24,603 nt of DNA from the NCBI GenBank assembly GCA_035527435.1, contig DATLAM010000030.1:1-24603 (forward strand). Reading direction: 5' to 3'. Position numbers and translations under genes: made by a program. The stretch comes from Candidatus Bathyarchaeia archaeon. GTDB taxonomy: Bacteria > Patescibacteriota > Microgenomatia > PFEM01 > DATLAM01. The notes beneath the pieces were generated by a model, which saw only the letters and a program-made list of their open reading frames with translations, was not told the origin of the DNA and did no database searches. This document shows, in pieces, positions 15,827 to 24,603 of the stretch; positions within the stretch are counted from its first letter, which is position 1, and every line of letters begins with the position of its first letter.

Positions 15827-18121
15827 ATGGGGAAGAAAAAACGAATAGCCTCTCTTTTGAGCTTATTAGTCATTAGCTTGCTCTTGGCCAGAAACAAGCC
15901 AAAAATAAAACCTGTTTCAGCCGCTCCCCCACCAATTCCCAATCCGCTAATTTTAAGTTATGGAGGATTTGATAGCGTTTTTGAGCCTACCTTGCTTAAT
16001 GAAGAAAGAGAGACTCCTGTCCCCAATGTGGTCGAGTCTCGAGTCTCGATAAATTACCCCCAAGAAGCAAAAGAAGGGGTGAAAATTCTCATTGAAAAGG
16101 GCGTTCTGCCTGCTTTCCACGTCCCCTCTCTTCCCAGAACCGGCCATACTTATTGGTGGAACGATCTGGATTGTGTCAATAACGAAGCTAATTTTGAGGC
16201 CTGTGTTCAATATAATGTTGACCTCTGGGAAAGTGCTTTTACCAACGATTTGGACGGTTTTCTTCCAGGAGGCTATAAAGCCCTTGCGGTTGACGAGATC
16301 GGTCTTTGGACTGAAGATGAAAACAGCCGGAGGACAAGAATTAAACTAGAAACTTTAAAACGGGTCAAACAAAATTACCCCGACCGATTGATTTTTGTTT
16401 GGGGCTGTTGTATTGGCTCCGAGGAAGGAACTAGCCTTTCAATTAAAACCCTTACTTATATTAAAAATTATGCCGACCGGATGATATATGAAATCTATCT
16501 TCCCGAATTGACGCCCCAAAGTAGAAGAGATTACTATTTTAGTAAATATTTTAAAAACCGTATCCTCAACTTAAAAAACGCCTGTCAAGGAAAAAGCTGT
16601 GAAGGTGTCCTGGCAAAAACGGTCATTGGCTTGGGAACGGCTGACACCGAAGATTGGGCTTACGATCGCGATCCCTCGGTTGACTTTCCTGATTTCCTTG
16701 ACGCCGAAATTCACTATATTAGAAATACCTCAATTCTAAAAGATCTACCAGGCATTGCTTTTTATTCTTACGCCCTCACCCGGCCAGAAACAATCACTTG
16801 GATTAATAAACTTGTTCGACACTACTACCTCGATCGCCAGACTTCTTTTTTAGGCGACGGAAATGATGCTTTAACTTATGTTTCCAACCCCAGCTTTGAG
16901 CAGTCTGATGGCTGGGAATTTCGACCCGGGAGCGGGGGTCAAATCACCTATAAAGACACCGCTGCGGTTGGTCTTACCACCCCCGGAAAATTACCTCGCG
17001 TCCCTCACGGCAACAGAGTTCTTTATATGAAAAAAGGATCGTCCCAGAATGTCGTCACCCAGACAATCTCTCTTTCTCCCAGAAGCTTTTACCACCTTGA
17101 CGTTTATGCCAAAAAACAAACCCCTCCTTACGAGGCAGCCCATGCTGACGTTCAGGTCATTGATGCCGCCGGGAATAGCCTAATTAGCTTCAAAGAAAAA
17201 AAAGAGGTTGATTCCAGCAGTAGGCTTGATTTTGTCGCCAAATACCATAATTGGACCCGATTTAGGATTGAATTTAAAACACCTCCAGAAATAAAGACAG
17301 TCAAAATTATTCTTTCTGATAACCAGGTAGTTCCAGGTGAAGTCACTCTTTGGGATTTTATCGAGCTGGAAAGATTAAAAGCAGGCAGCCTAACGGCTGG
17401 CCTTGGCGGCCAAAATGTCAGTCAAGAAATTTTTAAAAACCCTGGCTTTGAACAGGGGTTGTTTTATTGGCGAGAGTGGCAGGCCTACAATAATACTCTT
17501 CACGGACAGGCTGTTTCTAGCCCGGTTAAAGATGGAGCTAAGAGCCTCTTGGTCCAAAGCGATGTAGGCACCGATGTTTGGCGTCAAGACATCTTTTTGC
17601 AACCCCCTCAAGTCTACAAAATTTCAGGCTGGGTATACCTTAAAGAAACATCGGAAAACGGCAAGGCTTACCTTTATGTTAGAGGGATTAAAAACCAAGG
17701 CGGCTCCACCGATTTTTCTGTTTTGACTGATAGTTCCAGGTTGAACCAGTGGCAATACATTGAAAAAGAATTCCAGTTTGGCTGGGCATACAAAAATGTC
17801 GCCGAGGCAGCCAGTCGAACCACCGGAGCCACCAAGGCTTTTTTTGATGAGCTTAAAATTGAGGCGGGGGGTTCCGCTATTGCCACTCCCACGCCTTCTC
17901 CCCCTTCCCTGTCTCTTTCTCCTGGCTGGAATCAGGTTACCTGGCTTAATGTCGCCGGTAAAAAAGCCTCAGATATTCCTGATGCTTGCCCCATTGCCGT
18001 CTCCCAACAAAACTTCTGGTTTAAGCCTTATGTAAAGAATTTTGGTGGAGCGAATTTTGAGCTTGAGGGTGGGAAAATATATTATCTAAAATGTAATCAG
18101 GAAGTTGTTTGGACTCTTTAA
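15827..18121 (+). CDS. Exported protein A: putative glycoside-hydrolase-like barrel, two CBM4/9-like (galactose-binding fold) domains, short PT linker and shared C-terminal module
   Basis: Basic then hydrophobic N-terminus. VDEIG/MIYEIY barrel-like region. Two N-P-[SG]-F-E-initiated beta-sandwich domains (YVSNPSFEQ, IFKNPGFEQ). ATPTPSP linker. Domain calls are by pattern recognition. Confidence 0.65.
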   Translation: MGKKKRIASLLSLLVISLLLARNKPKIKPVSAAPPPIPNPLILSYGGFDSVFEPTLLNEERETPVPNVVESRVSINYPQEAKEGVKILIEKGVLPAFHVPSLPRTGHTYWWNDLDCVNNEANFEACVQYNVDLWESAFTNDLDGFLPGGYKALAVDEIGLWTEDENSRRTRIKLETLKRVKQNYPDRLIFVWGCCIGSEEGTSLSIKTLTYIKNYADRMIYEIYLPELTPQSRRDYYFSKYFKNRILNLKNACQGKSCEGVLAKTVIGLGTADTEDWAYDRDPSVDFPDFLDAEIHYIRNTSILKDLPGIAFYSYALTRPETITWINKLVRHYYLDRQTSFLGDGNDALTYVSNPSFEQSDGWEFRPGSGGQITYKDTAAVGLTTPGKLPRVPHGNRVLYMKKGSSQNVVTQTISLSPRSFYHLDVYAKKQTPPYEAAHADVQVIDAAGNSLISFKEKKEVDSSSRLDFVAKYHNWTRFRIEFKTPPEIKTVKIILSDNQVVPGEVTLWDFIELERLKAGSLTAGLGGQNVSQEIFKNPGFEQGLFYWREWQAYNNTLHGQAVSSPVKDGAKSLLVQSDVGTDVWRQDIFLQPPQVYKISGWVYLKETSENGKAYLYVRGIKNQGGSTDFSVLTDSSRLNQWQYIEKEFQFGWAYKNVAEAASRTTGATKAFFDELKIEAGGSAIATPTPSPPSLSLSPGWNQVTWLNVAGKKASDIPDACPIAVSQQNFWFKPYVKNFGGANFELEGGKIYYLKCNQEVVWTL
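17906..18121 (+). repeat. Shared 71-aa C-terminal module, copy 1
   Basis: Aligns without gaps to copies 2 and 3. 216 nt including the stop. Confidence 0.95.
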
Positions 18122-18152
18122 AAAAAGCACCAGATTTAATTCTTAAAACAAA

Positions 18153-20198
18153 ATGACCTTCAACTTGAAACAGAAAATCTTAAGACTTTCTGTTTTTATA
18201 ATTTTAATCTTTATCTTATTAATATTCCTGCTGTCTGGTAAACCAAAATTTAATTCTTGGATTGAAGCTTCATCTTTATTTCCAGTCTCGGGTCCAGTTA
18301 TCCATAGGGGAGGAACCTTAGCTGAGGTTTGGCAGGAATATGAAAACATCCCGCCAACAAGCAATCTTGATGCTCAAGTTTTCATTGACGGCAACAGTTA
18401 CGTCGTCAAAGATAATCAATATTGGTATCTGGCAAAAGATTCCAATCAATTTGTCAGTGGTTCGTTGACCCAGTTTTGGGGAAGCGAAATTAATCATCCT
18501 CCGATTGAAAAAATTGACGTCTGGACGATAACTCCCGATGGGTCTTGGATTGTCACCAAAAATGGCAGCTGGTGGCTTAAGTCTCTGGGAACAAACCAAT
18601 GGAGTAGCGGCACGCTAGCGGAAATCTGGCAAGATTATACCAATATTCCACCCACGGATGGAATTGATACCCAAGTTTATTTCTCAGATTGGACCACTTT
18701 GATCACTAAAGGTGGTAATTACTGGCGATTAAGGGCAAACTCCAAAGTTTTTGAAAGTGGAACGCTCAAAGATTTATGGAAGGAGTATTATGTTCATCCT
18801 CCAACTGACGGAATTGACGTTTACACCATAACAGGATCTTTTGAAGTGGTCACTAAAGATACTCTATATTGGGTCTTGGATAATGGTGAAAGACAAACAA
18901 AAACCTGGAAGTCTGGCAATGACTATTTTGGCCAAAGAGAACCTTACCCATATTATGATTCAACATCAGGTTGGTATTACTTATTTTATGATGGTCAGGA
19001 GGTAGGAGGAGAAAATTATGTTGTTAATACCATTAGCGTGGCTAAATCACGCTCTCCCCTTGGTCCATGGATAAAAAAACCCGTAAAAATTGAAGGTGTG
19101 ATAAGGTGGTGGGAGACATACAGCATTGGCTCACCTTGTATTTTCAAAGAAGGAAATTACTACTATATGTTTTACCTCGCCTCTGCCGGTGTCTATAATC
19201 CTGATGAACCCTTATTTAAAGTTGGAGGTGACTACCGAATTGGTTTGGCAAGAGCGACAACCCTCGATGGTTCCTGGATTAAACTTAAAGGTGACGGAAC
19301 TTTAAACCCTACTTCAAGTAATGATAAACCTCTTTTGCCACGAGGAATAGAAGATGACTATTGGGACAATATCTTCAATACAAGTTTTGTTAGTCTGCTC
19401 AAAAAAGATGGTCAATTCTTTCTTTTCTATACCGGACATGGAGATCGAGGATTTGGGGTAGGTTTAGCCAGAGCGAGTTCTATCCTGGGTCCTTATCAAA
19501 AATTAAATCCCCCAGGCAAGAATGACAATATTATTATTCCGCCGGAAGAAATGGTGGAAAACCTCAGTCTCTATTTCGATCAGCCTTCTAATTCTTGGTT
19601 TCTTTTTGGAAATTATTTGAAGATTGGTTGCGGGTGTGCCTGCCGAGGGGGACAAGGAACAGTGGTTTACCGAACTCAAGATCCTTTCAATTGGGATATT
19701 AGTAAAAAGAAATATCTGGTAATGGTTGATGAAAATTATCCGTGCCCCGCCAAGCCTTATGAAGATTTTGATATTTACAATCAACAATCAAGTCAGTTTC
19801 GAGGCCATGCAGGAGTACCGGGAATTGTTAAAGATCCCCAACAAGATCAATTGTATCTCTATTTTGATGCCAATGATTTTAATATGGCCGACCAAAACGA
19901 TCCCCAAAATCACTTTTTCAGAGACCTTTATTTAATGCAGATTCCAATTGAGCAATTGAGAGCCCTGCTTCCTTTAGGAGAAAGTTTTATTTTTTTAGAA
20001 GGCTGGAATGAGATTACCTGGCCCGCCGTGACGGGAATTAAAGCCTCAGATATTCCTCCCGAATGCCCAATTGCCGTGGCTAAAGAAAACTCCTGGTGGA
20101 AACCTTATGTGAAGAATTATGGTGGGCTGAATTTTGAGTTTGAGGGTGGGAAAATATATTATCTAAAATGTAATCAGGTAGTTGTCTGGAGCCTTTGA
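18153..20198 (+). CDS. Exported or membrane-anchored protein B: four hemopexin-like repeats, five-bladed beta-propeller glycosidase-like domain (GH43/GH32/GH117-type) and shared C-terminal module
   Basis: N-terminal TM helix. Tandem repeats of about 50 aa. Propeller blades of the type YYLFY..G / IG.A.....GPW.K recur. Confidence 0.7.
   Translation: MTFNLKQKILRLSVFIILIFILLIFLLSGKPKFNSWIEASSLFPVSGPVIHRGGTLAEVWQEYENIPPTSNLDAQVFIDGNSYVVKDNQYWYLAKDSNQFVSGSLTQFWGSEINHPPIEKIDVWTITPDGSWIVTKNGSWWLKSLGTNQWSSGTLAEIWQDYTNIPPTDGIDTQVYFSDWTTLITKGGNYWRLRANSKVFESGTLKDLWKEYYVHPPTDGIDVYTITGSFEVVTKDTLYWVLDNGERQTKTWKSGNDYFGQREPYPYYDSTSGWYYLFYDGQEVGGENYVVNTISVAKSRSPLGPWIKKPVKIEGVIRWWETYSIGSPCIFKEGNYYYMFYLASAGVYNPDEPLFKVGGDYRIGLARATTLDGSWIKLKGDGTLNPTSSNDKPLLPRGIEDDYWDNIFNTSFVSLLKKDGQFFLFYTGHGDRGFGVGLARASSILGPYQKLNPPGKNDNIIIPPEEMVENLSLYFDQPSNSWFLFGNYLKIGCGCACRGGQGTVVYRTQDPFNWDISKKKYLVMVDENYPCPAKPYEDFDIYNQQSSQFRGHAGVPGIVKDPQQDQLYLYFDANDFNMADQNDPQNHFFRDLYLMQIPIEQLRALLPLGESFIFLEGWNEITWPAVTGIKASDIPPECPIAVAKENSWWKPYVKNYGGLNFEFEGGKIYYLKCNQVVVWSL
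18312..18902 (+). repeat. Four tandem coding repeats of about 49-50 aa (hemopexin-like)
   Basis: G[TS]L...W.....[NH]..PP....[LI]D.........[VT]K...[YW]W at aa 54, 103, 153 and 203. Confidence 0.85.
19983..20198 (+). repeat. Shared 71-aa C-terminal module, copy 2
   Basis: 48/71 aa identical to copy 1. Confidence 0.95.
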
Positions 20199-20204
20199 AG
20201 TAAA

Positions 20205-21689
20205 ATGGGTAAAAAAATTTTAATATCGCTCCTTGTTCTCCTGTTTTTTGGTTTTCAGATTTCTCTCGATACCAAAGTTTTTGCTCAAAATGGCAATGTT
20301 GTTTCTTTTCGAGCGGATAGAATTGCCTTAATTAACGGTGAGCCTTTTTTCCCAATAGGCTTATTTACTGAACAAATGCCTAATTTACCAGAAGACTTCT
20401 TTGCCGAAATTTCCGACCCAGAAACAGCAGGATTTAATCTGGTTCGCCTGGTTGACACTGACGTCATCAGTAAGACTCCTGAAGACTATGCTTTTTTGTC
20501 CACCCACAACCTTAAAGCTTGGCTTACTATTAATAGTTCTTTAACCGTTGATAAAGATACCAAACTGAGAACGCTCATCGCCAATTACAAAAATGCCAAC
20601 TTCCTGCTTGCTTGGGAAGGAATAGATGAACCCTGTTATAAGTACTATAACGGCAATAGTCTTTTTGATCCAAACAAAGTTAACCAAAATTTTCCTGGAT
20701 ACCAAACCCTAAAAAATTTAGATACCAACCATCCCCTTTGGCACAACCACTGGCCCAAAGTGGGCACCGGTGGCCCTTGTGCGATACCCTGGAACATAAA
20801 CACCAATACTAATGTTAGCGGGGTTGATGTTTACCCAGTCGGCCGAAGTGACTACGAGCTAGAAGATGTTGGCTTTTTTACTGAATGGTCAAGCGAGCTT
20901 CTGACTCCCAGGGGTCCTGTTTGGATGGTACTTCAGGGCTTTGGTTGGGGTGACATTGAGGGACTTTCTGGCAGAAGACCAAATTATTCAGAAATCAGGT
21001 TTATGACCTATGACGCCCTGGTTCACAAGCAAGAAGTAAGTGACCAGATTATTCCGGGAGCCACTGGTATTTTCTATTATGGTTTAGCAATCGTTAATAA
21101 AAAAGAGTGTGGTGGTAATCCGGTCTGCGAGAAAAATGGTGATGGAATGAGAGAAACCCAAATCTTTAGTGACTTGAAAAAAATCTCTCACGAATTAAAA
21201 CAATTGGAACTGGGACTTCTCGGTCACATTAATCCAGAGTTTATCTCCAACAATAGTCAAGTTGTTGTCTTGGCTAAAGAAACAAACAACGAAACCTTTG
21301 TTTTTGTTGTTAATGAATCACCCTCTTCGCAAAATGTCACTATCCCTGGCTTTTCTGATCAATATACCGTGAAAGAATTCTTTTCGAACGAGGAGCTATT
21401 GGTTATTAACCGGAGTGCTAGCTTGACTCTTTTGCCCTATTCGGTCAAAATTCTTTGCCAAAAAGCTTCACCTTCTCTATCTCTCTCTCTTGGCTGGAAT
21501 GAGATTACCTGGGCTGACATCTCGGGCAAAAAGGCTTCGGATATTCCTCCAGAGTGCCCGATAGCCGTTAGTAAACAAAACTTCTGGTTTAAACCATATG
21601 TGAGGAATTTTGGGGGAGTTAATTTTGGTTTTGAAAATGGGAAGAGCTATTATCTAAAATGCAATCAAGAGATGATTTGGGGTTTGTGA
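20205..21689 (+). CDS. Secreted protein C: glycoside-hydrolase-like TIM barrel, small beta-sandwich and shared C-terminal module
   Basis: Signal peptide (VFA-Q). NGEPFFPIG, GFN, AWEGIDEP, DVYP, VWMVLQGFGW, ALVH and GATGIFYY motifs, then a VFVVNES beta domain. Confidence 0.7.
   Translation: MGKKILISLLVLLFFGFQISLDTKVFAQNGNVVSFRADRIALINGEPFFPIGLFTEQMPNLPEDFFAEISDPETAGFNLVRLVDTDVISKTPEDYAFLSTHNLKAWLTINSSLTVDKDTKLRTLIANYKNANFLLAWEGIDEPCYKYYNGNSLFDPNKVNQNFPGYQTLKNLDTNHPLWHNHWPKVGTGGPCAIPWNINTNTNVSGVDVYPVGRSDYELEDVGFFTEWSSELLTPRGPVWMVLQGFGWGDIEGLSGRRPNYSEIRFMTYDALVHKQEVSDQIIPGATGIFYYGLAIVNKKECGGNPVCEKNGDGMRETQIFSDLKKISHELKQLELGLLGHINPEFISNNSQVVVLAKETNNETFVFVVNESPSSQNVTIPGFSDQYTVKEFFSNEELLVINRSASLTLLPYSVKILCQKASPSLSLSLGWNEITWADISGKKASDIPPECPIAVSKQNFWFKPYVRNFGGVNFGFENGKSYYLKCNQEMIWGL
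21474..21689 (+). repeat. Shared 71-aa C-terminal module, copy 3
   Basis: 52/71 aa identical to copy 1 and 47/71 to copy 2. Confidence 0.95.
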
Positions 21690-21844
21690 AGCTTTTTCTG
21701 AATTTCTTCAAGATAAAACTTGCCGGGAAGGCTGATAATTTTTGGCAAGATTACGTTGCCGGTTTTGGAGGAAGAAATTTTGGATTGCAAAACAACCAAA
21801 ATTACTTTATAAATGTAAGTAAGAATTGTAATTGGACACCTTAA
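21686..21844 (+). pseudogene. Orphan, divergent, 5'-truncated fourth copy of the C-terminal module (52-aa ORF or gene remnant)
   Basis: KADNFWQDYVAGFGGRNFGLQNNQNYFINVSKNCNWTP aligns without gaps to module positions 34-71. GTGA overlap with the C stop and TAATG overlap with the next start. Confidence 0.7.
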
Positions 21845-23340
21845 TGATTTCTTTGAAAAAACCCATTTTTCTTTCAAAGCTTTCCAAAAAACAGCTAATC
21901 AGCCTCGCCAGTTTTTTAATAATCCTTATCTCCCTTCCTCTAGCAATTTTTCTCACTAAACAACAGCAAAGTTATCAAGGAAGGGCGGTGGGACCTGAAG
22001 CAAGACCGGCCAAAGTAAAAATCACCAATCTTCACGGCGGAGGTTTTTCTGTTTCCTGGGCTTCTGTTTCCATGAATGATGCCTACCAATTTATCGACAC
22101 CACTGGTTGGGTAGAATACGGAACCGCCCAAAACAGTCTTAACCAAACCGCTTATGACGATCGGGGTGGCGAAGATGTTTCTTCAACCACCCATCATGTT
22201 TCCATTTTTTATCTGAATCCCGATACCACCTACTATTTCAAAATTAAATCCGGGCCCTATCTTTTTGGTCTTAATGTGGCCGGTGACGGCTGGGTCAGAG
22301 GCGGCGCTGCCAAAGAACAAAAAACACCCAAAACACTTGACCTTCTCGGCAACCCTCACCCAGCCTATGGCTACATTAAAAATCAAACTGGTAATATTAT
22401 TGGCAACGCTTTAGCTTATGTTAGGCTTAAAAAAGACGGTTCTGATACCCAATCGGCCTTATTGTCGACCGTTACCAGGGCCAATGAGGGCTGGGTAGTC
22501 GACCTTAAAAACGCGAGGTCCTCCGGTTTGGGAAATTTTTTTAATTTTGATAACCAAGACCGGGTTTTAGTTGAGATTCAGGCCGCAGAAAAAGGCACCG
22601 CCTCGGCTGATTTTGCTGTCAGTGGGTCTTCGCCTGCACCAGACATTGCTCTTGCCTCTCCTACTGTTCCGACTGCCACTCAAACAATACCTCCCACGGC
22701 AACACCAACGCCAACAGGTGGCCCTGCGGCAACCTCAACTCCCACCCCCACTCCTCTTCCCACCGCTACGCCTACACCTTCACCTAAGCCAACCCCCACG
22801 CCACTGCCAACGCCTACTCCTACCCCATTACCCCCCACAGCTACCCCAACCTCAACCCCCACCCAAGTGCCAAACACAGTTAATCTTGATTTCCAAGTTA
22901 AATTCCAAGGGATCAATAACCAAAAACCAGTCAAAACAGCAAAAATTACGCTTAAAAAACCCGGCGAGTCAGAAACAGCTCATGAGGAAACTGTTAATTT
23001 TAACAGTAACCAAAGCGGCGTTTGGAGCGGTAGGATAATGAATATCTCCCCGGGCACTTACGATCTTTACATTAAGGGCTGGGCCCATTTACAAAAGAAG
23101 TTTGAAGGGATCACTCTGGCTGAGGGTGAAAATAGCCAAGATTTTTCCGGAACTAGCCTATTAGCCGGAGACATTAATGATAACAACAGAATTGAGGCGC
23201 TTGATCTGGCTATTGTTATTGAACACTACTGGCCGGATACGCCAGCCAACAGTCCGGCTGACTTTAATCTTGACGGTTCAGTCAATGCCTTAGATATTGG
23301 CTTGGTAATCGAAAACTACTTCCTAGAAGGAGATTCATGA
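21844..23340 (+). CDS. Surface protein D: Fn3/purple-acid-phosphatase-N-like domain, beta-sandwich, Pro/Thr linker, beta-sandwich and C-terminal dockerin
   Basis: TM anchor. ITNL....FSVSW...GWVEYG...HHVSI..L.PDTTYYFKI. Two EF-hand dockerin repeats, DINDNNRIEALD and DFNLDGSVNALD. The ATG at 21844 is preferred over the TTG at 21832. Confidence 0.8.
   Translation: MISLKKPIFLSKLSKKQLISLASFLIILISLPLAIFLTKQQQSYQGRAVGPEARPAKVKITNLHGGGFSVSWASVSMNDAYQFIDTTGWVEYGTAQNSLNQTAYDDRGGEDVSSTTHHVSIFYLNPDTTYYFKIKSGPYLFGLNVAGDGWVRGGAAKEQKTPKTLDLLGNPHPAYGYIKNQTGNIIGNALAYVRLKKDGSDTQSALLSTVTRANEGWVVDLKNARSSGLGNFFNFDNQDRVLVEIQAAEKGTASADFAVSGSSPAPDIALASPTVPTATQTIPPTATPTPTGGPAATSTPTPTPLPTATPTPSPKPTPTPLPTPTPTPLPPTATPTSTPTQVPNTVNLDFQVKFQGINNQKPVKTAKITLKKPGESETAHEETVNFNSNQSGVWSGRIMNISPGTYDLYIKGWAHLQKKFEGITLAEGENSQDFSGTSLLAGDINDNNRIEALDLAIVIEHYWPDTPANSPADFNLDGSVNALDIGLVIENYFLEGDS
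22657..22872 (+). repeat. Pro/Thr-rich (PT)n linker
   Basis: PTATPTPT/PTPTPLP low-complexity run of about 72 aa. Confidence 0.9.
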
Positions 23341-23906
23341 GCAAAAAATTAATCCCCGTTCTGATGGTCATTTTAGGTTCAATTTTAGCTCTCTTTTGTG
23401 TTGGTTGGAGTTTAAGCGGTAAATGGTCTTTACCGGAAAAACTCAGCCTTTTGGAGATGGTTCCCCTGCCTAAAAAAGAAATTTCTCCTAAGCTGTTCCT
23501 TTCTTTTGATCCCAAAGAAAAAACCGTTTATCAAGGCGAAAGTTTTACGGTTAACGTTTTAGCTGAAAGCGAAAGAAAGCTTCTTGCCGCTGATCTTTTT
23601 ATCACCTTTAATCCCCAGGCTTTAGAGCTGGAAAATATTAAACCTGGCGGGTTTTTTGCCTCAGCTAAAGAATTTTCCCAAAAGATTGACCTGGTCAAAG
23701 GTGAAGTTTTTTACGCCCTTGGTTCACTAGAACCCGCTGAAGAAGAAGGGGTTTTAGTTTCCCTAACTTTTAAAGCCAAAACAGGAGACCAGCAGGGGTC
23801 AATTTGGATTGGAAAAAAGACCTTGGTTTCGGCTAAAGAAGACCAAAGAGTTGACATCCAATTGCCAGATGCAGGAAAATATCTTATACTGGTAAGGAAA
23901 CAATAA
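23337..23906 (+). CDS. Membrane-anchored single-cohesin-domain protein E
   Basis: N-terminal TM. GESFTVNV, AADLFITFNP..LEL..I.PG.FF and GVLVSLTFKAK match the cohesin pattern. ATGA overlap with D. Confidence 0.75.
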   Translation: MSKKLIPVLMVILGSILALFCVGWSLSGKWSLPEKLSLLEMVPLPKKEISPKLFLSFDPKEKTVYQGESFTVNVLAESERKLLAADLFITFNPQALELENIKPGGFFASAKEFSQKIDLVKGEVFYALGSLEPAEEEGVLVSLTFKAKTGDQQGSIWIGKKTLVSAKEDQRVDIQLPDAGKYLILVRKQ

Positions 23907-23914
23907 ACAAGAAA

Positions 23915-24603
23915 ATGAAGAGAAAAGTCCTGGCCGTTTTTATCCTTCTTGTCATGCTTGCCTCTATCCCGGTTGGTGTTTTTCTGGTTAAAAAAAGACA
24001 AGAAATTCAATTAAGGGCCGCCCCAGCGACTGTTCTTTCTTTGTTCCCAGAAGTGGAAGATTACGAGGTTGATGAAGTCTTTACCTTAAATGTCAATATC
24101 GATACCGGAGAAAACTTAATTGTCAGCGCCGACATAATCTTAAATTATGATCCTTCGATTCTAGAGGGGGTAGAGGTTACCATGGGAAGCTTCCTTCCGG
24201 GTGCCCAGGAACTAAATAAAAACATTAATAATGATCTGGGAAAGATAATCTATAGTCTTTACACCACCCAAGAAAACGCCCAACAAGGCGGAGGGGCACT
24301 TGTCTCAATCACTTTCAAGGGGGTCGCGCCGGGAACAAGCACGGTTGTCATCGATAAATCCCTGTCTCTGATTGGCGGGCTTGGAGAGAAAGGTCAAAAT
24401 TTGCTCGTTAGCGCCACTGACAGTTCCTATTTGATTGCTGATGCTGAATCCCAACCAACAATCACTCCCACTCAGACACTTACTCCCACCCCTATCGGAG
24501 TAGGAGGCGGCGAGGAGCCAACAGCCACCCCGACACCAACCACTACTGACCAGGATTTGGACGACGAAAACGGTACGGGTGGAGGGACTGAGCCAACAGC
24601 CAC
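23915..24603 (+). CDS. Cohesin-domain surface protein F with PT/acidic linker; 3'-truncated by the window edge; absent from the ORF track
   Basis: Manual translation gives MKRKVLAVFILLVMLASIPVGVFLVKKRQEIQLRA, FTLNVNIDTG, SADIILNYDPSILE and GALVSITFKG, then PTITPTQTLTPTP. No stop before the edge. Confidence 0.8.
   Translation, partial: MKRKVLAVFILLVMLASIPVGVFLVKKRQEIQLRAAPATVLSLFPEVEDYEVDEVFTLNVNIDTGENLIVSADIILNYDPSILEGVEVTMGSFLPGAQELNKNINNDLGKIIYSLYTTQENAQQGGGALVSITFKGVAPGTSTVVIDKSLSLIGGLGEKGQNLLVSATDSSYLIADAESQPTITPTQTLTPTPIGVGGGEEPTATPTPTTTDQDLDDENGTGGGTEPTA

What the first reader, a model, noticed from the sequence alone, without database searches (positions are those of the whole stretch)
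21686..21844. Hidden fourth, divergent, truncated copy of the module in the apparent intergenic gap
Seen: the 154-nt gap between C and D encodes ...KADNFWQDYVAGFGGRNFGLQNNQNYFINVSKNCNWTP*. This aligns without gaps to module positions 34-71 (YV, FGG.NFG, N, Y, and W third from last) and stops at the equivalent position. It lacks the GWN..TW half and both aligned Cys. Its stop overlaps the D start (TAATG), and a GTG overlaps the C stop (GTGA). Inference: it is the 3' stump of an older module-bearing gene that was coupled to D and was displaced when A-B-C arrived. Alternatively it is a translated 52-aa free module or competitor. Either way it links the module family to the cohesin-dockerin operon.
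Basis: partly seen in the sequence, partly recalled or inferred. Interest (0 to 1): 0.78.

Follow-up and report, generated by a model that had tools for sequence, protein, structure and literature searches.

The report
Deletion remnant of a docking-module gene
The small reading frame between genes C and D is the leftover last 43 codons of an enzyme gene that related bacteria still have intact at this spot; the leftover is probably not a working protein, but it led to a second subtype of an undescribed module that is predicted to dock enzymes onto the dockerin protein D.

Summary
The peptide, the GTGA overlap with C's stop and the TAATG overlap with D's start are all present. An HMM of the three A/B/C modules scores the stump at 23.5 bits, against a maximum of 10.3 in 2000 shuffles.

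It is not a divergent copy of the A/B/C module. The family has two subtypes. The stump matches positions 40-82 of the second subtype ("type 2", about 82 aa) at 66 bits and 60-68% identity, including the type-2 C-terminal Cys.

In seven related lineages an intact type-2-module enzyme gene (X) sits exactly here, after type-1 gene(s). Its stop always overlaps D's start. In the window X is reduced to a start codon overlapping C's stop, about 9 codons, and the last 43 codons. The simplest cause is an internal in-frame deletion.

The junction is identical in contigs from three runs. A strain with 98.6% identical D appears to keep a whole type-2 module, so the deletion looks recent.

The stump has no export signal and lacks half the fold and one Cys. 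Alone it models poorly (pLDDT 51, against 92 for the whole module). Any present role is at most as a translated relay that passes ribosomes from C to D, which has no Shine-Dalgarno (SD) motif.

Side result: the type-2 module is predicted to bind D's ectodomain (ipSAE 0.88, best control 0.10), through the half that the stump keeps.

This scan holds only first-reader notes on this same window, none on other DNA.

The parts
21474..21689 (+). Type-1 C-terminal module and stop codon of gene C (gene C spans 20205-21689)
   Evidence: 139.6 bits to the type-1 HMM. Alignment A1.
21686..21844 (+). Stump ORF: 52 codons plus stop. Public gene callers use the ATG at 21659 instead, giving 61 aa.
   Evidence: Open frame runs 21635-21841.
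21686..21688 (+). GTG start candidate overlapping C's stop (GTGA). This is the same geometry as the start of intact X in relatives.
   Evidence: ATGA in L007, L008 and L016; GTGA in L017.
21686..21712 (+). Nine codons (M/V-KLFLNFFK) with no module homology. Probably what is left of X's start and the beginning of its signal peptide.
   Evidence: X orthologues begin MKK plus hydrophobic residues. The hydrophobic run here is too short for export. Inferred.
21713..21841 (+). Positions 40-82 of the type-2 module (strands b3-b6 of the model), including the type-2 C-terminal Cys
   Evidence: 66.3 bits, E 1.8e-19. 64.9 bits at 21716-21841. 68% identity to P0050. Model elements.
21842..21846 (+). TAATG: the stump's stop overlapping D's ATG
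   Evidence: The same overlap (TGATG, TAATG or ATGA) is present in all 8 related loci with DNA.
21844..23340 (+). Gene D: membrane-anchored protein with a conserved ectodomain, a PT-rich linker and a C-terminal dockerin. There is no SD motif before its start.
   Evidence: Pfam Dockerin_1 3.1e-9. Upstream sequence. Orthologues.
23337..23906 (+). Gene E, a cohesin protein
   Evidence: Pfam Cohesin 7.1e-11.
23915..24601 (+). Gene F, a cohesin protein that runs off the window
   Evidence: Pfam Cohesin 2.4e-10.
17906..18118 (+). Type-1 module of gene A (15827-18121)
19983..20195 (+). Type-1 module of gene B (18153-20198)

Best explanation
The ORF at 21686-21844 is what remains of gene X. In related genomes X is a secreted enzyme with a C-terminal 'type-2' module. 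It lies between the last type-1-module gene and the dockerin gene D, and is translationally coupled to D.

In this lineage one deletion inside X removed nearly everything. What is left is X's start codon (still overlapping C's stop), about 9 N-terminal codons, and the last 43 codons (module positions 40-82), joined in frame and ending at the original stop that overlaps D's ATG.

Shown:
- homology to the type-2 module
- truncation
- conserved synteny
- conserved stop/start overlaps
- the junction is real DNA

Inferred:
- The deletion was internal and in frame (about 0.6).
- It was recent.
- The peptide itself has no function, because it cannot be exported or fold.
- If the ORF has any present role, it is as a short translated relay. 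Ribosomes finishing C restart at GTGA, read 52 codons, terminate at TAATG and restart on D, which has no SD motif of its own (about 0.45). Otherwise it is a neutral, young remnant.
For: 1. Subtype identity. The stump scores 66.3 bits (E 1.8e-19) to an HMM of 19 type-2 modules over positions 40-82, against 29.6 bits to the type-1 HMM. It is 60-68% identical to type-2 C-terminal halves and about 37% identical to C. All invariant type-2 residues in that half are kept.

2. Synteny. An intact type-2 gene of 160-717 aa lies immediately upstream of the D orthologue in L007, L011/L012, L013/L014, L016, L017, L018 and the P0050/P0070 locus, followed by two cohesin genes. Type-1 gene(s) precede it, and hrcA-grpE-dnaK lie upstream, as in the window.

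3. Overlaps. X's stop and the next gene's start overlap in all 8 loci with DNA. X's start overlaps the previous stop as [AG]TGA in 4 of 7 loci, as in the window.

4. Coupling. D has no SD-like motif in the window or in relatives, whereas E does. There is no terminator between C and D. Strict coupling at such overlaps has been shown experimentally for 13 of 14 gene pairs (PMC6728339).

5. Real DNA. Contigs from three runs cross the C-stop/stump/D junction with 0 differences.

6. Recent origin. In a fourth run a contig has D 98.6% identical (8 differences in 562 nt). Its spacing upstream (84 nt, 28 codons, between the GWN..ISG piece and the NFWQDY piece) fits a whole type-2 module. The stump's non-synonymous distance to intact modules (mean pN 0.254) lies within their own range (0.187-0.307).

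7. Not a working module. It lacks b1, b2, the helix and Cys34 of the model. Its best 12-residue hydrophobicity is 1.2, against 2.45-3.48 for signal peptides of X, A and C. The stump alone models at pLDDT 51 and pTM 0.25, against 92.5 for the whole module. No homologous ORF of 34-107 aa exists among 5.8 billion clusters.
Against: - The in-frame internal-deletion scenario rests on 9 uninformative codons and on geometry. A random deletion would give such an ORF about 15% of the time (1/3 for frame, times 0.46 for ten open codons).
- The ancestral X of this lineage was not recovered, so the deletion end points are unknown.
- The contig from the fourth run could not be read. Its last roughly 60 nt of module did not align at 85% or better, so its wholeness is inferred from spacing only.
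- No expression data exist.
- The stump shows no decay, which also fits purifying selection on the peptide. It keeps 19 of the 20 residue positions predicted to contact D.
- Synonymous sites are saturated against all available relatives, so dN/dS on the stump's own branch cannot be measured.
Confidence: 0.85

Rival explanations
1. It is a functional 52-aa (or 61-aa) micro-protein. The retained half-module still binds D's ectodomain and acts as a cap, competitor or assembly factor for docking of module-bearing enzymes.
For: The predicted complex of the type-2 module with the D orthologue scores ipSAE 0.88 (best control 0.10). 19 of the 20 module contact residues fall at positions 41-73, all inside the stump. 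12 of these 19 are identical in the stump and 3 more are conservative (sequence comparison). D's predicted contact residues are conserved in the window's D (25 of 28 identical to P0070). The ORF is open, with start and stop overlaps intact.
Against: It has no signal peptide, while D's contact surface lies outside the membrane. It lacks b1, b2, the helix and one Cys of the likely disulfide. AF2 on the stump with an alignment gives pLDDT 51 and no strands. No homologous small ORF exists anywhere else. Any 5'-side deletion that spares D's start would keep this half, so its retention is not independent evidence. The complex was modelled with the whole module, not with the stump.
Confidence: 0.07
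2. One reading: an old, strongly diverged fourth copy of the A/B/C (type-1) module, left behind when the A-B-C block was inserted.
For: It has significant similarity to the type-1 HMM (23.5-29.6 bits). Its stop is at the equivalent position.
Against: It matches type-2 more than twice as well and carries the type-2-specific ending ..NQNYFINVSK.C.W.P. Type-1 genes and an intact type-2 gene coexist in relatives. It is not diverged: its pN lies within the range of intact modules.
Confidence: 0.02
3. It is an assembly artefact: a chimeric join or collapsed repeat that deleted X in silico.
For: Module repeats can break or mis-join metagenome assemblies. Several related contigs end near modules.
Against: Independent Logan contigs from three runs span 20900-22363, 21398-22081 and 21661-21877 with no differences.
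Confidence: 0.02
4. It is a programmed -1 frameshift extension of C that appends the half-module to C.
For: The stump frame is the -1 frame of C and is open from 21635, overlapping C's last 17 codons.
Against: There is no X_XXY_YYZ slippery heptamer in C's last 17 codons (read from the sequence). The shift would destroy the last strand of C's own module. No such arrangement is seen in relatives.
Confidence: 0.01

Closest known systems
Gene remnants (truncated pseudogenes) left by internal deletions in bacterial operons
   Same: It is homologous to only the 3' part of a gene that is intact in relatives. It has lost its export signal and half a domain. It is specific to this lineage.
   Different: The remnant is an exact in-frame mini-ORF that keeps both the upstream stop/start overlap and the downstream one. 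It therefore still fits a chain of coupled translation.
Translational coupling by termination-reinitiation at overlapping stop/start codons (ATGA, TGATG; Huber et al. 2019, PMC6728339)
   Same: GTGA at the C/stump junction and TAATG at the stump/D junction. D has no SD motif. The X-stop/D-start overlap is conserved in all related loci.
   Different: Coupling here is inferred from sequence only. The upstream partner would be a 52-codon relic, not a functional gene.
Cohesin-dockerin (cellulosome-type) assembly
   Same: The locus encodes a type I dockerin protein (D) and two cohesin proteins (E, F) next to glycan-active enzymes.
   Different: The enzymes carry no dockerin. They carry an unrelated module of about 71-82 aa (no Pfam hit, no solved analogue). 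The type-2 form of this module is predicted to bind D's N-terminal ectodomain, not a cohesin. The stump is half of that module.
Unnamed C-terminal module family (66 representative clusters among 1.84 billion proteins), type 1 (A/B/C-like) and type 2
   Same: The stump carries the type-2 consensus from ..IA.K..DWW..YV..YGG.NF.L to ..C.W.P.
   Different: Family members are complete domains at the C-terminus of secreted enzymes of 94-932 aa. The stump has only the second half and no passenger.

Membership tests
Type-2 subtype of the C-terminal module (unnamed, defined here from 19 representatives, alignment A3) | Scores significantly to the type-2 profile, and better than to the type-1 profile | tested here: met
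   66.3 bits against 29.6 bits. 64.9 bits, E 2.2e-18 in the search of the window's own assembly.
Type-2 subtype of the C-terminal module (unnamed, defined here from 19 representatives, alignment A3) | Complete domain of about 82 aa with the GWN..W strand pair, the helix insert (YTA.SAL.DI..DC) and both Cys | tested here: not met
   Only profile positions 40-82 are present. No trace of positions 1-39 exists in any frame. Cys34 is absent, Cys78 is present.
Type-2 subtype of the C-terminal module (unnamed, defined here from 19 representatives, alignment A3) | Sits at the C-terminus of a secreted enzyme with an N-terminal signal peptide or TM segment | tested here: not met
   There is no passenger. 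The N-terminus has a hydrophobic run of 6-7 residues only.
Type-2 subtype of the C-terminal module (unnamed, defined here from 19 representatives, alignment A3) | Gene lies directly upstream of the dockerin gene D with stop/start overlap | tested here: met
   TAATG at 21842-21846. The same holds in 7 related lineages.
Type-1 module (A/B/C-like) | 71-aa domain ending ..Y.LKCNQ...W.L with Cys28 and Cys63 | tested here: not met
   37% identity to C. The type-1 Cys positions are not occupied. It scores lower than to type-2.
Dockerin (PF00404) or cohesin (PF00963) | Match to the Pfam profile | tested here: not met
   No Pfam family matches the stump or the module parts of A, B and C at E <= 0.1.
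Gene remnant / pseudogene | Only part of a gene that is intact at the same position in relatives | tested here: met
Gene remnant / pseudogene | Not conserved as a free-standing ORF in other genomes | tested here: met
   A search among proteins of 34-107 aa returns only the ORF itself.
Gene remnant / pseudogene | Relaxed selection (dN/dS near 1) on its own branch | tested here: inconclusive
   pN 0.254 lies within the range of intact modules. pS is about 0.66, which is saturated. No close sister sequence was available.
Termination-reinitiation coupled gene pair | Stop and start codons overlap on the same strand | tested here: met
   GTGA at 21686-21689 and TAATG at 21842-21846.
Termination-reinitiation coupled gene pair | Translation of the downstream gene depends on translation of the upstream ORF | not testable with these tools
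   Needs a reporter assay. There is only indirect support: no SD motif before D in any lineage.

The most novel reading that the evidence does not exclude
The module family is a new kind of enzyme-docking domain that plugs into the ectodomain of the dockerin adaptor D. This part is supported by the model, at about 0.6.

On this reading the 52-aa stump keeps 19 of the 20 predicted contact positions, is still made, and binds D. It would act as a cap or competitor that controls which module-bearing enzymes (A, B, C) occupy D. The probability given is for this stump-specific part.
Probability: 0.06. Interest if true: 0.75.

Novelty: new member of a known kind. Interest (0 to 1): 0.45.

Why it matters
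The stump itself is an ordinary event: a young deletion remnant. Its value is as a marker. It showed three things.

- The module comes in two subtypes with fixed positions in a conserved locus: type-1 gene(s), then one type-2 gene, then the dockerin adaptor D, then two cohesins.
- The type-2 gene is always translationally coupled to D.
- The type-2 module is predicted with high confidence to bind D's conserved ectodomain.

If binding is confirmed, these small-genome bacteria build a surface enzyme complex with an extra, undescribed docking tier: module to adaptor, then dockerin to cohesin.

The remnant also gives a natural test case for whether a relic ORF is kept to preserve translational coupling.

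Tried and rejected
- Pfam gave no family for the module or the stump.
- Fold searches of the module model found no solved analogue: Foldseek PDB best E 0.2 with TM 0.40, and VIA wide best Z 4.5. AlphaFold DB gives only uncharacterised multidomain proteins.
- 60 GTDB relatives: the type-1 profile finds only two marginal hits, so representative genomes gave no synteny.
- A genome-contig scan with D found only distant relatives at 27-34% identity.
- A search with D's first 198 aa, meant to fetch the contig of run X4, did not find it.
- A gapped DNA alignment of the stump to A's 3' end (score 28, three 1-nt gaps and one 2-nt gap) suggested a frameshifted KCN codon block. I rejected it as over-fitting in AT-rich sequence. 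The gap-free protein alignment to type-2 explains every codon.
- Catalytic parts of A, B and C have no relatives among the other module-bearing representatives, apart from one fragment (P0018) that matches A. The idea that C is X with a swapped module therefore has no support.
- The promoter/terminator scan found nothing beyond chance: 2 promoter-like sites against 0.8 expected, and no terminator.
- dN/dS: synonymous sites are saturated.
- P0031, a 42-aa 'half module', turned out to be a gene-call fragment of a frameshifted gene with an intact module, not a second stump.
- A -1 frameshift extension of C: no slippery site.
- Not possible because of caps: complex predictions of the stump with the window's D, and of type-1 modules with D.

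Full report
**Observation**

The + strand of the window carries A (15827-18121), B (18153-20198), C (20205-21689), D (21844-23340), E (23337-23906) and F (23915 onward). A carries CBM_4_9, D a type I dockerin, and E and F cohesin domains. The shared ~71-aa C-terminal module of A, B and C has no Pfam match.

In the 154-nt C-D gap, a frame is open from 21635 to TAA at 21842-21844. GTG at 21686-21688 overlaps C's TGA (21687-21689). D's ATG at 21844-21846 overlaps the TAA.

A profile of the three modules scores the ORF at 23.5 bits. None of 2000 shuffles exceeds 10.3. In the whole assembly the module occurs at exactly these four places. That assembly is 452 kb in 72 contigs, 66% complete, the size of a small-genome, CPR-type bacterium.

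**What the stump is homologous to**

A profile search of 1.84 billion representative proteins finds only 66 clusters with the module, almost always at the very C-terminus of proteins of 94-932 aa. The modules fall into two subtypes.

- Type 1 (A/B/C-like) is 71 aa and ends ..LKCNQ...W.L.
- Type 2 is about 82 aa. It has two insertions that form a helix region (YTA.SAL.DI..DC.G.T) and ends ..NQNYFINVSK.C.W.P.

The stump belongs to type 2:

- It is 60-68% identical over 41-43 aa to type-2 C-terminal halves (best match P0050, E 4.5e-21), against about 37% to C.
- It scores 66.3 bits (E 1.8e-19) to the type-2 HMM over positions 40-82, against 29.6 bits to the type-1 HMM. The search of the window's own assembly confirms this (21716-21841, positions 41-82, E 2.2e-18).
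- Its single Cys is the invariant second Cys of type 2.

So it is not a diverged copy of the A/B/C module. It is a well-kept second half of the paralogous subtype. No intact type-2 module is present in the assembled part of this genome. No trace of positions 1-39 survives in any frame.

**Synteny**

I looked up contigs that encode type-2 proteins and D orthologues. Seven lineages show the same architecture:

- L007
- L011/L015 and L012
- L013/L014
- L016
- L017
- L018
- the P0050/P0070 locus (no DNA available)

In each, hrcA-grpE-dnaK lie on the minus strand where the contig reaches that far. Then come type-1-module gene(s), one type-2-module gene X (160-717 aa), the D orthologue, two cohesin genes and murJ.

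X's catalytic part differs from lineage to lineage. The catalytic parts of A, B and C have no relatives among the other module-bearing representatives, apart from one fragment (P0018) that matches A. The region is therefore a cassette array with conserved 3' modules.

In every locus with DNA, the stop of X overlaps the start of the next gene (TGATG, TAATG or ATGA). In 4 of 7 loci, X's start overlaps the stop of the preceding gene as ATGA or GTGA. X begins MKK followed by a long hydrophobic stretch.

The window has this geometry at both ends of the stump. GTGA at C's stop is followed by M/V-K-L-F-L-N-F-F-K, and TAATG sits at D's start. The simplest history is one deletion inside X that joined its first ~9 codons, in frame, to its last 43 codons.

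That sub-claim is only moderately supported. A random deletion would give such an ORF about 15% of the time, and 9 codons cannot prove homology.

**Is it real DNA, and how old is it?**

Logan contigs of three soil-metagenome runs cross the C-stop/stump/D junction with no differences. This excludes an assembly artefact.

A fourth run holds a contig whose D part is 98.6% identical (8 differences in 562 nt). Upstream of D, that contig has 84 nt between the GWN..ISG piece and the NFWQDY piece. That is exactly the 28 codons of a type-2 module, against 17 codons in type 1 and 212 nt in the window. The distance to D also fits a whole module. I could not read that contig, so its wholeness is inferred from spacing alone.

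The stump's non-synonymous distance to nine intact modules (mean pN 0.254) lies inside their own range (0.187-0.307). Synonymous sites are saturated. There is no measurable decay. This fits a recent deletion and does not need selection on the peptide.

**Can the stump work as a protein?**

- The AF2 model of a whole type-2 module is confident (pLDDT 92.5). Its elements are b1 4-6, b2 9-14, helix 23-34, b3 39-46, b4 49-54, b5 69-74 and b6 78-80. The stump keeps only b3-b6 and one of the two invariant Cys.
- Modelled alone with an alignment of 19 C-terminal halves, the stump gives pLDDT 51 and pTM 0.25, with no strands.
- Its N-terminus has no export signal. The best 12-residue hydrophobicity is 1.2, against 2.45-3.48 for X orthologues, A and C.
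- No homologous ORF of 34-107 aa exists in 5.8 billion protein clusters.

A functional free module is therefore unlikely.

**What the module does (a side result that bears on the stump)**

X is always coupled to D, so I modelled the closest relative's type-2 module (P0050) with its own neighbour D orthologue (P0070, residues 40-504). The score was 0.88, 0.88 and 0.87 in three runs, with a best control of 0.10. In the tool's calibration that mark was reached by 58 of 80 solved complexes and 2 of 110 mismatched pairs. These counts hold only roughly here because my own alignment was used. No solved analogue of the module exists, so the result is not recall of a known complex.

On the module, the contact residues are 10, 41, 43, 45-54, 56-60, 71 and 73. 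This is the conserved ..DFW..YV.GFGG.. hairpin, and 19 of the 20 residues lie within the half that the stump keeps.

On D, the contact residues lie in the N-terminal ectodomain (62-67, 128, 170-183, 215-229, 270). 64% of them are invariant among 10 orthologues, against 27% for the rest of the ectodomain (Fisher p = 1.7e-4). The window's D keeps 25 of 28.

The likely function of the module is therefore to dock its enzyme onto the adaptor D, whose dockerin would in turn engage the membrane cohesins E and F. The first step is modelled and the rest is inferred.

That the stump keeps the contact half is expected for any deletion that spares D's start. It is not independent evidence of function. D's contact surface also lies outside the cell, whereas the stump has no signal peptide.

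**Most likely mechanism now**

D has no SD-like sequence in the window or in any relative, whereas E does. There is no terminator between C and D. Overlapping stop/start pairs were strictly coupled in 13 of 14 tested cases (PMC6728339). The one present role I consider plausible (about 0.45) is a 52-codon relay that keeps ribosomes flowing from C to D. The alternative is a neutral young relic.

Two observations suggest that module 3' ends next to a coupled start tend to survive when the upstream gene erodes.

- A type-1 3' stump in L017 sits just before the next gene, with its stop overlapped by that gene's ATG.
- X is split in the closest relative (P0050 locus).

**Verdict**

- It is wrong in calling the stump a divergent copy of the A/B/C module, and in the displacement scenario.
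- The stump is an ordinary deletion remnant.
- The two-subtype module, its fixed place before D and its predicted docking to D are the interesting by-products.

Noticed in passing
P0050:79-160 with P0070:40-504 (relative's locus); corresponds to window D 21844-23340: The type-2 module is predicted to bind the N-terminal ectodomain of the dockerin protein D (ipSAE 0.88, best control 0.10). The predicted contact residues on D are 64% invariant among 10 orthologues, against 27% elsewhere in the ectodomain (p 1.7e-4). This suggests an undescribed docking tier upstream of dockerin-cohesin.
   Followed up: partly
L017:161-250: A 28-codon 3' stump of a type-1 module (46 bits, profile positions 46-73) has in-frame stops just upstream. 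Its TGA is overlapped by the ATG of the next type-1 gene. This is a second case of a module remnant kept directly before a coupled gene. A PELVEG/PEFIEG-like repeat lies upstream of it.
   Followed up: partly
P0050/P0070 locus (Logan contigs, no DNA served): In the closest D relative (75-78% identity), X is split. A Polysacc_lyase-fragment ORF ends 141 nt before a 160-aa ORF that has no signal peptide but carries an intact type-2 module coupled to D. X seems to be eroding in that lineage too.
   Followed up: no
L020:2250-2560: A 635-aa beta-helix/malectin gene is frameshifted just before an otherwise intact type-1 module. The 42-aa 'protein' P0031 is only a gene-call fragment of that module.
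   Followed up: yes
L016:1-2651: One lineage has two type-2-module genes in tandem before D. The first one's stop is overlapped by the second one's ATG.
   Followed up: no
L019:2127-2966: Here the type-2 gene is followed, again with an ATGA overlap, by a gene that is not D-like. The coupling to D is therefore frequent but not universal.
   Followed up: no
window 21492-21526 against the X4 contig: The N-terminal GWN..ISG coding stretch of C's type-1 module is 32/35 identical to the start of the apparent type-2 module in the near-identical strain. Meanwhile the last ~60 nt of that strain's module do not align to the stump at 85% or better. This mosaic similarity is compatible with recombination among modules.
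   Followed up: no
window 15827-21689: The passenger parts of A, B and C have no relatives among the other 63 module-bearing representative proteins, apart from one fragment (P0018) that matches A. The module is attached to very diverse enzymes.
   Followed up: partly
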